Part shown: positions 28,806-32,220 of the stretch, in pieces | Layout of the letters: each line of letters opens with the position of its first letter | Numbering within the stretch: position 1 is the stretch's first letter | Translations under genes and position numbers: made by a program | The notes under the pieces: generated by a model | Told to the model about the DNA's origin: nothing | The model's database searches: none | What the model saw: the letters and a program-made list of their open reading frames with translations, nothing else | From: a virus | Virus record (IMG/VR): IMGVR_UViG_3300042508_000910 | Direction: 5' to 3' (one strand) | DNA length: 64,000 nucleotides

Positions 28806-29969
28806 ACTTGACAAAAGCGAAATAATAAACTAAAAATAAGTTATGTGGACTCCCGCTGATATCTTTTATCTTTGTTTCATTTTAAATATGACTCCAGATA
28901 ATAATGCTCGTTTAAATGTGAGCGATATTATAGAAAATAAAGAAAATAAGATTATAGCTGAAACAATTACTTTAAGAACTCCTCAATACTAGATATAATA
29001 ATTTAAACCGTGAAACCCAAGGTTTGTGGTGAACCTGCTATCTGTTAGACCCCTTCCAGATTGCGAAAACCACCCTCTTAAATAATGATTAATAGCTATC
29101 AAATAAAAGCATTAGATGAGAATGAATTATCTTATTTGTATTATTGTTTAAATTCTGAATGGGACTCTTTAAATATGAAGTATCCTTTTGATTGGTATAT
29201 ACTTAAATCTTTTAGAAATGATAGTATTCAACATCTTTTAAATAAATATAGTTCTAACTTGACAGATGAGAATAAGCCAATTATAATGAGCATACTAAAT
29301 AAATTGGAGGCAAACTACTAATGAATCATCTTATTGCTTGGTTGGTTACAATTATTGCTTTTGCAGGATTGTTTTATCCTATTATTAGATTTGTTGGCAG
29401 CAAATATTATTATGTAGACACCACCCCAATTCGCTATTGGCTAAACAAGAATCAAAAAATAAAGAAAAGATATAAGACTTTCAAGAAGCGAAATAAGAAA
29501 CATCTTGTGGTAAATAAGATTATTAAAGTTGGTTCTTATAACAAATATTCAAATACTAGATTGACTAAAGTAAATAAATAAAATATAGTAATACTATGAA
29601 CCAAATAAACGCTTCTGGAATATTGCCAAATAGCTGGACTAATGAGGTTACTCTAGATGACTGGAGATTAATTCAAGATTGTGTTGTAGATAAGATCTCA
29701 GAGGTAAAGCACAGACAAAGCTATGGTCACGAAGATGTTGTTTATAAATTAGAAATGGTTCTAAATAAAATCCGCACGAAAGGACTATCGGTTTATCTAT
29801 GATCAAATTAATATCAATTGCACTCGTACTCTGGATATCGATGTATAGCACTTATTGGGTATGCGGTAAGTTGTTTGATTATAAGTGTGATATCTTTAAC
29901 ATCTTTAAGAAGAAAAAGAAAAGTCGCCGTAGGTCTTGACTAGGATTTAGTTTGTGGTATGCTCAATGT

Positions 29970-30473
29970 ATGAGCAAATCCAAAAAAATTAAATTACCAA
30001 AGATGGACGACATCTATCAAAAGATCGCAGAAGAACGTCTAACCAAAAGCGAAGCAGTCAAGCGTAATGCAAAAGCATTATTTGATTACCTAGAAAACAA
30101 TACTAGGATTACTTCTATCGAAGCAACATTTGATGGTTGTGGCGATAGCGGTCAGATTAACGCTGTTAATTATTACGACCATCGTGATAAAGATGTAGCC
30201 GCACCTCTCGATAATATTCAAGGGTCTAGGCTAGAAGCTGGATACCATTGGAATGAAAAGAAAAAGAAAATGGAAGAACTGCCTGCCCGTGAAGGTTGTG
30301 TTGAGGAGCTTGTTCACGAGATATGCTATGACAAGTTAGGTTCAAAGCATATGGGATGGGAGATCAACGAAGGTTCCTACGGCACATTCAGCTTTGATGT
30401 TCTTAATCGCAAGATTAGTCTTGAATTTAATGAGCGTGTCGAAAGCGTGAATACTACCGAGGAGACATTCTAA
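29970..30473 (+). CDS. DUF6878-like protein
   Basis: FDGCGDSGQI and GWEINEGSYG motifs; start moved to ATG 29970, 6 nt after the TATGCT -10 box. Confidence 0.65.
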   Translation: MSKSKKIKLPKMDDIYQKIAEERLTKSEAVKRNAKALFDYLENNTRITSIEATFDGCGDSGQINAVNYYDHRDKDVAAPLDNIQGSRLEAGYHWNEKKKKMEELPAREGCVEELVHEICYDKLGSKHMGWEINEGSYGTFSFDVLNRKISLEFNERVESVNTTEETF

Positions 30474-30823
30474 TGGCTAATCCTTACCATCATTCTGTAT
30501 CTTCAGCAAAGAAATGGGGAGGCGTTCCCGAAGATTATCAGAAGATTCACGATTGGTTCGATGAATCAAAGATGATGATGGCAGACTTTCGCCATCGTGC
30601 TTTACGACATCACGCTGAAGGAATATTTATGTGTGAGAGGATATTTGGTCACACCATTACATTAAGTAATGGAAAAAAGATTCCTACTCGCTGGATTGGC
30701 GAACAGCATGTGATTGAGGATTTGGGTCGTATTCCTTCGATGCAAGATTGGTTCAAACACATTATGCCCGAAAGTTGGATGGGCAAAACCAAGAAACTTG
30801 ACAGCGAACTAGAATTGGCCTAA
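30473..30823 (+). CDS. DUF6915-like protein
   Basis: MANPYHHSVSSAKKWGG...IHDWFDESK...RHRALRHH...EQHVIED. Confidence 0.7.
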   Translation: MANPYHHSVSSAKKWGGVPEDYQKIHDWFDESKMMMADFRHRALRHHAEGIFMCERIFGHTITLSNGKKIPTRWIGEQHVIEDLGRIPSMQDWFKHIMPESWMGKTKKLDSELELA

Positions 30824-30832
30824 AGTAGACAA

Positions 30833-30940
30833 AGATTTGTTGTGTGAGGTGATGGTGAGGTCATCGGTTGTTGCCTCCGTTAATGGCAAATCGTTTGGAA
30901 GTATCGAAAAACTTCCGCCGTTTTGAAAAAACAGTTCGCT
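30833..30940 (+). ncRNA. Candidate structured small RNA
   Basis: TTGACA-17-TAAAGT promoter (30798-30826), no ORF, consecutive hairpins. Confidence 0.4.
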
Positions 30941-31077
30941 TTTGACTACTATTAGTTGTATAATAGGGTACTATGAGCGAAGAACAATTTGAGGAGAATC
31001 TAAATTATGGAGACAATGTTAATTTTGTTGGCAGGATTCGGGATATTTTTGTATCTATCGCAGAACTAAAAAAAGAA

Positions 31078-31106
31078 TTGACAAAAGAGTAACCTTAATT
31101 TATAAT
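31078..31106 (+). promoter_or_regulatory. Perfect consensus sigma70 promoter
   Basis: TTGACA-17 bp-TATAAT. Confidence 0.88.
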
Positions 31107-31112
31107 ACTAAG

Positions 31113-31471
31113 ATACAGGGCAAACTCTCGGTTGCGAGAGGATGTAATGGAGAGTAGGTGGGGTTGATCTCCCAACAAGACTTCGTTCCCTGTATGTTCT
31201 TTGATATCAACGGGGCGAGATTAATAAGGTTGTCCGTTAACCTAAAGCGAAAAGTATACCCTTTGCGAGAAAAATACCGCAAAGTATTTCGCTAAAAGCC
31301 TCGATAAAAAACATGGAAGTACTAACCGAATCACTGGCCTAAGATGTGCGTTGGGGCACTGAGATGCTAGTGGAAAATTTTCCGTATCCTATCACAGATT
31401 GGATGTCTTGGTAAAGCGGAACCCTGCTGAGACCATATATCCTGTGAGCGTTTTTTGGTGTCGCAGAAACC
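31113..31471 (+). ncRNA. Candidate ~360-nt structured non-coding RNA
   Basis: Follows the consensus promoter, no + strand ORF in the track, GC-richer than its flanks, at least seven helices. Confidence 0.62.
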
Positions 31472-32220
31472 ATATTTTTTCTTTACAAATAACATAAATA
31501 ATATATACTACTTGAATGACTAAAACATTCAATATTGGCGAGTATGCAGTAGGCGGAAAGATTAAAGTAAGTATCCCAAAAACCTTAACTACTATTAAAA
31601 TAGATGTGCTTGATAGCAATTATGGCACAGGCAAATTGGTTAATCAATATATCTATTATAGCTTTGATAGGATTAGGATCGAGCGTGACCTTTGGCAGAT
31701 TACTACTACTTATTATACTGATATGATTACTAGCTGGATTAACAAAAACTGGCAAGTAGAATTAATCAAAAATAGTATTTGACTATATTAAAAAATAAAT
31801 TATAGTAGACCTATGAACAACACCGAAAATACAAAGAAATTCACGATTCGTATGCAACGCAACCAGATCGCAGAAGTGGACATCGAGGTAGAAGCCATCA
31901 ATGATGCTGAAGCGATTGACAAAGCTATGGAGCTTGCAGAAAATGAAACAGACGCAAGTGGCTTTGCTCTTGATTGGGACGAGGTTGATTATACCTTCGA
32001 AGCTCTTGATGTCGAGTGCGATGAGGACGAGAACGATGAGTGAGATTATTGTTGATTGTCTTATGTGGATGGCATTTGGCCTTGTTATCGTAGGATTAAT
32101 ATTGCCATTTTTATGATCACAGGAGACACAATAGTTGCCTTTCTTATCATAGCTTTTTCGGCTCTCTATATTTATCTTAATTATTATTGACTTTAATTAT
32201 TAAAAGGTGTAAGATAATAT

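What the first reader, a model, noticed from the sequence alone, without database searches (positions are those of the whole stretch)
31078..31471. Perfect promoter driving a ~360-nt highly structured non-coding RNA
TTGACA-17-TATAAT, a perfect consensus, is followed not by an ATG but by a GC-richer tract with many helices: ATACAGGG(31113)/CCCTGTAT(31188), CTCTCG/CGAGAG(31125-31140), AACGG/CCGTT(31209-31238), AGCGAAA/TTTCGCT enclosing CTTTGCG/CGCAAAG(31246-31293), CACTGGC/GCTAGTG(31332-31372) and TCACAG/CTGTGA(31392-31447). A boxA-like GTTCTTTGATAT lies at 31196. I see no tmRNA, RNase P or group I intron hallmarks, so this may be an unclassified phage ncRNA (or two RNAs separated at the boxA-like site).
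Basis: partly seen in the sequence, partly recalled or inferred. Interest (0 to 1): 0.75.

Follow-up and report, generated by a model that had tools for sequence, protein, structure and literature searches.

The report
Modular knotted RNA of lake phages
This stretch is a real, strongly transcribed gene for a folded non-coding RNA carried by a group of large uncultured lake phages. It is built from swappable modules around a conserved pseudoknot, matches no catalogued RNA family, and its function is still unknown.

Summary
A 12/12 sigma-70 consensus promoter (31078-31106) drives a non-coding RNA from A31113 to a U-run at about 31480.

- **Expression:** contigs from four lake metatranscriptomes (three studies) cover only 31113-31362. 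None covers the flanking genes.
- **Homologs:** I collected 101 distinct homologs from lake phage contigs.
- **Structure:** it is strongly supported, with 94-96% of cells paired against 33-55% in slid controls and 14-23 compensatory pairs per alignment.
- **Modules:**
  - A 5' three-way junction (31113-31195).
  - A roughly 185-nt multi-helix insert found only in 'long' forms such as this one.
  - A universal 3' core (31380-31480).
- **3' core:** the strand 31380-31385 pairs with the apical loop 31416-21 of a kinked hairpin. This pseudoknot is kept in all 101 copies by three different double changes. A U6 tract and a small invariant hairpin with a U-run follow it.
- **Database matches:** nothing in Rfam 15 reaches threshold. 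Only the 5' junction resembles the c-di-GMP-I aptamer, and only weakly (15-22 bits against a cut-off of 35). The reciprocal test failed.

My best reading is a stand-alone, abundant structural RNA of the GOLLD/ROOL kind, possibly self-associating. A riboswitch reading is the main rival. This scan had already flagged the same family on other DNA.

The parts
31078..31106 (+). Sigma-70-type promoter, 12/12 match to consensus with a 17-bp spacer
   Evidence: All 98 homologs that carry the 5' domain have TTGACN-17-TAnnnT at a fixed distance, with the -10 end 10-13 nt before the GGCA motif.
31113..31113 (+). Probable transcript 5' end, 7 nt after the -10 box and the first base of helix P1
   Evidence: A metatranscriptome contig starts here with a fold-back loose end. 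No RNA contig lies upstream.
31113..31195 (+). 5' module, a three-way junction. P1 is 31113-20/31188-95. P2 is 31121-22/31143-44 plus 31125-30/31135-40. P3 is 31149-52/31181-84 plus 31159-63/31170-74. The P3 loop holds the self-complementary GAUC.
   Evidence: Covariation. P3 tips are of two kinds, both palindromic: GAUC in 29 copies and GGCGCC or GGCGCU in 69. Sub-threshold c-di-GMP-I likeness.
31196..31210 (+).
   Evidence: Conserved in long forms, in one short group and at the 5' start of the variants that lack the 5' module (L082, L199).
31211..31379 (+). Insert domain found only in long forms. Helices: 31211-16/31298-303; 31227-31/31239-43; subtype-specific 31246-51/31288-93 with 31261-67/31278-84; 31332-38/31366-72; 31346-49/31356-59. 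It also has conserved single-stranded blocks.
   Evidence: Absent from 74 distinct short forms.
31380..31385 (+). 5' strand of the pseudoknot
   Evidence: Pairs with 31416-21. A 6-7 bp helix is present in all 101 distinct copies, with three kinds of double compensatory change.
31392..31447 (+). Kinked hairpin H1: 31392-97/31442-47, 31398-99/31439-40, 31400-02/31433-35 and 31406-11/31427-32. It has two conserved 3-nt bulges. The apical loop holds the pseudoknot 3' strand, 31416-21.
   Evidence: Covariation. The UUGG and CCAUA bases around the bulges are invariant.
31448..31480 (+). Invariant 3' tail: GCG, a U6 tract, a small hairpin (31456-59/31469-72 plus 31461-62/31466-67) and a U-run (31474-80)
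   Evidence: The few variable tail sites fall in the triloop and at the G.A mismatch of the hairpin. One group extends the stem by two pairs. The hairpin is weak, -3 to -7 kcal/mol. Conservation stops at the U-run.

Best explanation
This is a stand-alone gene for an abundant, modular, structured RNA that works as folded RNA. It is not an mRNA or an mRNA leader.

**Shown:**
- A consensus sigma-70 promoter is fixed in register in all homologs.
- RNA libraries hold a transcript that starts at 31113.
- The RNA has three modules whose helices covary.
- The last roughly 100 nt form a universal core: a pseudoknot between 31380-85 and the loop 31416-21 of a kinked hairpin, then U6, a small invariant hairpin and a U-run.
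- The 5' modules are exchangeable. The 5' junction has two tip types, the 185-nt insert is optional, and a few variants have a quite different 5' region.

**Inferred:**
- Host RNA polymerase makes the RNA at a high level early in infection.
- The transcript ends at the weak terminator. Where tRNA-Asp follows within a few bases, it reads through and is trimmed by tRNA processing.
- The conserved core is the working part, and it binds a partner or further copies of the RNA.
- In setting and build it works like the GOLLD and ROOL class of phage RNAs, which sit near tRNA genes, have a conserved 3' region and a variable 5' region, and are abundant.
- Both alternative P3 tips carry self-complementary loops. 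The 'pseudoknot' strands could pair between molecules just as well as within one. So I favour self-association into a dimer, ring or larger particle.
For: - **Promoter:**
- **RNA contigs** of four runs (three studies) lie only on 31113-31362, with none on 30400-31083 or 31483-32100. One starts at 31113.
- **No ORF**.
- **Covariation:** short forms are 94.5% paired against 44-55% when slid, with 20 of 42 pairs compensatory. Cores are 95.5% against 33-46%, with 14 of 29. Long forms are 95.8% against 41-50%, with 23 of 76. For the share of paired cells, the pair and cell counts of compensatory change and the covariation score, 0 of 500 shuffles reached the observed value in any of the three alignments; in the long forms alone the count of further pair types was matched by 28 of 500.
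- **Pseudoknot** present in 101 of 101 copies, with type-specific complementarity.
- **The module ends at the U-run,** after which flanks diverge.
- **The core occurs without the 5' junction** in L082 and L199.
- **Palindromic P3 tips** in 98 of 98 copies.
- **GOLLD and ROOL** are phage-encoded, lie near tRNA islands, are abundant, and GOLLD has a conserved 3' and a variable 5' region. One ROOL interaction first read from covariation as tertiary proved to be an intermolecular kissing loop (PMC12286853).
Against: - No function was tested.
- No RNA contig covers 31363-31480, so the 3' core is not shown to be part of the accumulated RNA. Contigs cannot show ends.
- The terminal hairpin is weak, and in 15 of 110 contexts a tRNA-Asp follows with no room for a promoter. 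The RNA is therefore sometimes the head of a longer transcript.
- The 5' junction looks faintly like a riboswitch aptamer.
- Palindromes of 4 and 6 nt in loops are not rare by chance (my rough estimate is a few percent for both together).
- The metagenome copies were fished with the tail motif, so tail invariance is unbiased only in the 13 distinct copies found through the neighbouring protein.
Confidence: 0.5

Rival explanations
1. It is a cis-acting riboswitch. The 5' junction would be a diverged c-di-GMP-I-type aptamer for a cyclic dinucleotide. The hairpin with U6 and the small hairpin with its U-run would be a dual-terminator expression platform. This platform would gate read-through into tRNA-Asp or the next genes.
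For: - c-di-GMP-I is the only sensible Rfam hit for the 5' junction: 14.9 bits (E 0.47) in the window and 22.1 bits (E 0.008) in L007, over the full model.
- The GGCAAAC and GCAAAG junction motifs sit in the right structural places.
- The bases aligned with Vc2 G20 and A47 are invariant, and an invariant C lies where C92 would be, though that register is ambiguous. The roles of these bases are from PMC11218506 and PMC11705072.
- Two U-runs lie about 20 nt apart, as in the Bc1 dual terminator (PMC11218506).
- tRNA-Asp follows without its own promoter in 15 of 110 contexts.
- Terminated leaders would look like the RNA contigs seen here.
Against: - The score is far below the gathering score of 35. 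A true phage c-di-GMP-I element (phi CD119) scores 73 bits.
- A model built from the 5' junction does not find that true riboswitch.
- The GNRA tetraloop and its receptor are absent.
- The supposed platform is far more conserved than the aptamer and folds into its own covarying pseudoknot. It also occurs behind other 5' regions and behind a 185-nt insert that separates it from P1.
- No mutually exclusive helix was found. P1 and H1 coexist in the consensus fold. The one alternative pairing, CGC with GCG, is not restored where the pseudoknot strand changes.
- In the window the next gene has its own promoter-like site.
Confidence: 0.2
2. It is the leader or companion RNA of a phage tRNA operon, like the stable 'species 1 and 2' RNAs of the T4 tRNA cluster (from my own knowledge). 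It would be co-transcribed with tRNAs, cut out by RNase P and other tRNA enzymes, and would help tRNA processing or stability.
For: - tRNA-Asp starts within 60 nt of the U-run in 15 of 110 contexts and within 400 nt in 10 more.
- The L082 and L199 variants follow a tRNA directly.
- The tail ends in ACCA before the U-run.
Against: - 85 of 110 contexts have no tRNA within 400 nt downstream, and the window is one of them.
- The RNA has its own consensus promoter in every copy with the 5' domain (98 of 98).
- No tRNA-like arm was detected by ARAGORN or the Rfam tRNA model.
Confidence: 0.1
3. It is a base-pairing or chaperone-titrating small RNA. The U6 tract, terminal hairpin and U-tail would form an Hfq-type binding module (from my own knowledge), and a conserved single strand would act as a seed against host or phage mRNAs.
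For: - The layout of the tail.
- Invariant single-stranded blocks.
Against: - No complementary site for the tail was found anywhere in the 64-kb window.
- The RNA is far larger and more structured than known seed RNAs.
- The host and its chaperones are unknown.
Confidence: 0.07
4. Conservation reflects a DNA-level element, such as an origin, a packaging site or a recombination cassette boundary, and not an RNA.
For: - The tail is near-identical between otherwise diverged copies, and modules look shuffled.
Against: - Compensatory changes keep strand-specific G-U pairs, and a pseudoknot is maintained.
- RNA libraries are enriched for this stretch over its flanks.
- The promoter is kept in register.
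Confidence: 0.03

Closest known systems
GOLLD and ROOL RNAs (large 'ornate' phage and prophage RNAs; PMC12286853)
   Same: - Phage-encoded, in or beside tRNA gene regions, and abundant.
- Many covarying helices and pseudoknot-type pairings.
- GOLLD likewise has a conserved 3' region and a variable 5' region.
- Function unknown.
   Different: - No match to either family in the Rfam searches.
- Much smaller, about 180 or 370 nt against about 600-800 nt.
- Different helices.
- Oligomer formation is only inferred here.
c-di-GMP-I (GEMM-I) riboswitch aptamer, Rfam RF01051
   Same: - Three-helix junction of about 85 nt.
- GGCAAAC before a first hairpin with a 6-bp stem and 4-nt loop.
- GCAAAG between the hairpins.
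- Invariant bases at the positions aligned with G20 and A47, and an invariant C where C92 would lie (register ambiguous).
- Phages are known to carry this riboswitch (phi CD119).
   Different: - 15-22 bits against a cut-off of 35.
- No GNRA tetraloop or receptor.
- The reciprocal model search fails.
- What follows is a conserved pseudoknot module and not a simple platform.
phi29 prohead (packaging) RNA (from my own knowledge; cited as ref. 35 in PMC12286853)
   Same: - A phage RNA of similar size made from a strong early promoter.
- Built round a three-way junction.
- Its covarying loop-loop pairing is intermolecular and builds a ring.
   Different: - Known only in small phi29-like phages, where it sits on the portal.
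- No sequence likeness.
- No link to packaging genes here.
Stable RNAs 'species 1 and 2' (rnaC, rnaD) of the phage T4 tRNA cluster (from my own knowledge)
   Same: Non-tRNA stable RNAs of unknown function encoded with phage tRNAs.
   Different: Those are processed from the tRNA precursor, whereas this RNA has its own promoter.

Membership tests
c-di-GMP-I riboswitch (RF01051) | Score at or above the Rfam gathering score (35 bits) | tested here: not met
   14.9 bits in the window and 22.1 bits in L007. Not listed in the larger searches. The phi CD119 control scores 73.2 bits.
c-di-GMP-I riboswitch (RF01051) | Junction motifs and ligand-contact bases (Vc2 G20, A47, C92) | tested here: inconclusive
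   The aligned bases G31119 and A31146 are invariant in the family, and an invariant C lies at 31188/89. The register at C92 is ambiguous, and the base aligned with C46 is U, C or A.
c-di-GMP-I riboswitch (RF01051) | GNRA tetraloop on the first hairpin docking into a receptor on the second (type 1 members) | tested here: not met
   The loop is GUUG, AUUGC or AAAUGC with an invariant UGC. No receptor motif is present.
c-di-GMP-I riboswitch (RF01051) | Reciprocal recognition: a model of this 5' junction finds a true member | tested here: not met
   Model R2 gives only noise (7 bits or less) on the phi CD119 locus and misses the riboswitch at L215:1501-1596.
c-di-GMP-I riboswitch (RF01051) | Binds c-di-GMP and switches an expression platform | not testable with these tools
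   Needs in-line probing or ITC and transcription assays.
GOLLD / ROOL / other large Rfam RNAs | Match to the family covariance model | tested here: not met
   No hit at the gathering score or at E up to 10.
GOLLD / ROOL kind (function-level likeness) | Homo-oligomeric RNA-only assembly | not testable with these tools
   Only indirect signs: palindromic P3 tips in 98 of 98 copies and a loop-linker pairing that could be intermolecular.
tmRNA / tRNA-like | tRNA-like domain found by ARAGORN or Rfam | tested here: not met
RNA anti-CRISPR / solitary CRISPR repeat | The tail resembles a repeat that occurs in arrays in host genomes | tested here: not met
   The tail motif occurs once per contig in every hit. 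In 185,579 species genomes there were only two hits, and neither was an array.
Intrinsic terminator | GC-rich hairpin directly followed by a U-run | tested here: inconclusive
   The scan calls none on the + strand here. The terminal hairpin is only -3 kcal/mol in the window and -7 in one group. Conservation nevertheless ends at the U-run.

The most novel reading that the evidence does not exclude
The RNA may be a self-assembling particle with a sensor.

- **Assembly:** This would give a ring or cage of a much smaller RNA than GOLLD or ROOL.
- **Sensor:** the c-di-GMP-I-like 5' junction would bind a cyclic dinucleotide. The particle could then sense or soak up a host second messenger or a CBASS-type immune signal.

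Either half alone would be new.
Probability: 0.2. Interest if true: 0.85.

Novelty: new variant of a known kind. Interest (0 to 1): 0.64.

Why it matters
Phage structured RNAs near tRNA genes are a growing class whose function is still unknown. This family is small enough (about 180 nt in its short form) to study easily by probing, binding assays and cryo-EM.

- It comes in natural module-swap variants that act as ready-made controls.
- It is present in RNA libraries from three lake studies.
- It offers two directly testable ideas, self-assembly and cyclic-dinucleotide binding.

If either idea holds, it would link phage RNA particles to signalling or immunity.

Tried and rejected
- **Protein coding:** no frame is open under any stop reading.
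- **Cultured relatives:** blastn against 50,697 phage records found nothing.
- **SRP Alu domain:** the UGUAA junction recalled it, but no SRP model hit at E up to 10.
- **Primer-binding-site idea:** the tail would be complementary to a tRNA 3' end, but none of 154 phage tRNAs ends that way.
- **Solitary CRISPR repeat:** no arrays found.
- **Seed pairing of the tail within the window:** no site found.
- **Long-range helix between the linker and the tail:** only invariant bases pair, and the extension is broken in L094 and in the B-type copies (read by eye). Not supported.
- **Alternative CGC/GCG terminator extension:** not restored where the pseudoknot strand mutates.
- **Group I intron reading of the 185-nt insert:** no Rfam hit, and the boundaries do not fit.
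- **More distant homologs:** a core model found none in 43 related loci that share the upstream gene. A 5'-domain pattern scan of IMG/VR gave only chance hits.
- **Larger Rfam and genome searches for c-di-GMP-I:** nothing listed.
- **Fremin and Bhatt catalogue (PMC10690425):** its supplements are not held, so I could not check overlap.
- **RNA contigs over 31363-31480:** none, but contigs break at variants, so this is not evidence of absence.
- **Neighbouring proteins:** they have no known function in Pfam or PHROGs.

Full report
**What is there**

The window is part of an uncultured, AT-rich (34% GC) phage with nine tRNA genes. No whole genome is held for it, and no cultured phage matches it at the DNA level. 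At 31078-31106 lies a perfect TTGACA-17-TATAAT promoter. Only two such sites occur in 64 kb, where shuffles give 0.03. The next 370 bases have stops in all six frames. They fold better than shuffles (z = -2.96) and are somewhat richer in G+C than the surroundings.

**It is transcribed**

Public lake metatranscriptomes hold part of the stretch. I laid contigs of four RNA runs from three studies on 30400-32100. They cover only 31113-31362. Nothing lies on the protein genes to the left (30400-31083) or right (31483-32100). DNA carry-over would not give that pattern.

One contig begins exactly at 31113, which is 7 nt after the -10 box and the first base of helix P1. It carries a fold-back loose end of the kind made when cDNA synthesis reaches an RNA 5' end. 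Contigs cannot show ends or levels, and none covers 31363-31480. The 3' end is therefore inferred from sequence only.

**The family**

The upstream gene (DUF6915) led to 59 related viral loci, and 17 of them carry the RNA. A scan for the 3' tail motif brought more than 120 lake-metagenome contigs. One further 3-kb contig is binned in a Terrimicrobiaceae MAG. In all there are 101 distinct full copies.

- **Promoter:** every one of the 98 copies with the 5' domain has TTGACN-17-TAnnnT in fixed register.
- **Synteny:** it is tight. DUF6915 is upstream in 104 of 108 loci, and the 88-aa ORF is downstream in 87 of 123.
- **Limits of the family:** related loci with a more distant DUF6915 lack the RNA. 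In IMG/VR the 5' domain never occurs without the tail.

**Anatomy**

The RNA is modular. About 74 distinct copies are short (about 180 nt) and about 23 are long (360-415 nt), like the window's. A few have other inserts (L180, L088). Two (L082, L199) lack the 5' junction altogether and start at the boundary motif behind a tRNA.

- **Module 1 (31113-31195)** is a three-way junction of helices P1, P2 and P3.
- **Module 2 (31211-31379)** occurs in long forms only. It is a multi-helix domain with invariant single-stranded blocks.
- **Module 3 (31380-31480)** is universal.

Counts of pairs on three alignments give:

| Alignment | Cells paired | Slid controls | Compensatory pairs |
|---|---|---|---|
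| Short forms | 94.5% | 44-55% | 20 of 42 |
| Cores | 95.5% | 33-46% | 14 of 29 |
| Long forms | 95.8% | 41-50% | 23 of 76 |

For the share of paired cells, the pair and cell counts of compensatory change and the covariation score, no shuffle in 500 reached the observed value in any of the three alignments. In the long forms the count of further pair types was matched by 28 of 500 shuffles.

**The core**

The strand just 5' of hairpin H1 (31380-85) is complementary to H1's apical loop (31416-21). A 6-7 bp helix can form in all 101 copies. When one side changes, the other follows, in three different ways (21, 5 and 1 copies). Mismatched type combinations would give only 4-5 bp.

H1 carries two 3-nt bulges flanked by invariant bases. 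Only 5-6 nt join the pseudoknot strand to the base of a 17-bp hairpin. The hairpin must therefore bend sharply for the pairing to form within one molecule. Otherwise the pairing forms between molecules.

The tail is GCG, U6, a 6-bp hairpin with a G.A mismatch, and a U-run. Its few variable sites fall in the triloop and at the mismatch, and one group lengthens the stem by two pairs. The hairpin is weak (-3 to -7 kcal/mol). Tail invariance is by construction in the metagenome copies, which I fished with the tail motif. It is an unbiased observation only in the 13 distinct copies reached through DUF6915.

**Comparison with known RNAs**

No Rfam 15 family reaches its threshold on the window or on homologs, and ARAGORN finds no tmRNA. 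The insert and the core, searched alone, give only noise.

The 5' junction searched alone gives c-di-GMP-I as the only sensible hit. It scores 14.9 bits (E 0.47) in the window and 22.1 bits (E 0.008) in L007, across the whole model.

- **For the likeness:** the two junction motifs sit where they do in the riboswitch. The bases aligned with the ligand contacts G20 and A47 are invariant, and an invariant C lies where C92 would be. Their roles are described in PMC11218506 and PMC11705072.
- **Against it:** the cut-off is 35 bits, and a true phage example scores 73. The tetraloop and receptor are missing, and a model of the junction does not find the true riboswitch.

I therefore treat the likeness as a lead and do not file the junction as a member.

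**How it most likely works**

Several facts point to an RNA that acts as folded RNA:

- The unit runs from a consensus promoter to a U-run, after which flanks diverge.
- The most conserved part is the 3' core, which has its own knotted fold.
- That core occurs behind different 5' modules and behind a 185-nt insert.
- P1 and H1 coexist in the consensus fold.

This is also the pattern described for GOLLD and ROOL. They are phage-encoded, lie near tRNA islands and are abundant, and GOLLD has a conserved 3' and a variable 5' region. In ROOL, a pairing first read from covariation as tertiary turned out to be intermolecular (PMC12286853). Both alternative P3 tips here hold self-complementary loops, GAUC in 29 copies and GGCGCC or GGCGCU in 69. 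I therefore favour self-association, and this is inference.

The main rival is a riboswitch with a dual terminator. The evidence for it is the aptamer likeness and the 15 of 110 contexts where tRNA-Asp follows with no room for a promoter. The evidence against it is the conservation pattern and the lack of any competing helix.

**Earlier notes**

The scan had already met this family on other DNA. Notes e1-5728415 and e1-5728419 cover the long form, and e1-5900794 covers the short form before tRNA-Asp, with the GEMM idea. New here:

- the universal core and its pseudoknot;
- the short, long and alternative-5' series;
- the RNA-library evidence;
- the palindromic tips;
- a two-way test of the c-di-GMP-I likeness.

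Noticed in passing
window 30838-30930: A conserved element of about 85 nt lies directly after the DUF6915 stop: two hairpins and a terminator-like hairpin with a U-run. Stems change in a compensatory way between loci. A 2-nt indel breaks the short ORF that it seems to hold, so it is an RNA-level element and not a micro-gene. No RNA contig covers it.
   Followed up: partly
window 30973-31092: A conserved 39-aa acidic ORF with its own promoter. Its last codons hold the -35 box of the RNA promoter. A homolog is found upstream of the RNA in 75 of 108 loci.
   Followed up: partly
L001:4450-4525, L002 and L005 (same place): In some relatives a tRNA-Asn(GTT) gene is inserted between the post-DUF6915 element and the 39-aa ORF. 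In others tRNA-Asp starts 5 nt after the RNA's U-run.
   Followed up: partly
It starts with nearly the same 13 bases as the module-boundary and pseudoknot-strand motif of this family, and it closes on a complementary GCGGAAGAA at its 3' end. It lacks the tail and is not hit by the core model.
   Followed up: partly
window 29259-29287: The only other perfect TTGACA-17-TATAAT site in the window, placed before an 86-aa ORF (29321-29581).
   Followed up: no
L082:1461-1778 and L199:213-500 (minus strands): Variant RNAs that keep the core and tail but replace the 5' junction with a different domain closed by an 11-bp U/A-rich helix. They follow a tRNA and sit in a different gene context. L199 is a 3-kb contig binned in a Terrimicrobiaceae MAG, which is a weak hint about the host at best.
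   Followed up: partly
window 31113 (run X17, record 3): A chimeric RNA contig joins the reverse complement of the linker of a related variant to position 31113. It looks like hairpin-primed second-strand synthesis through helix P1.
   Followed up: no
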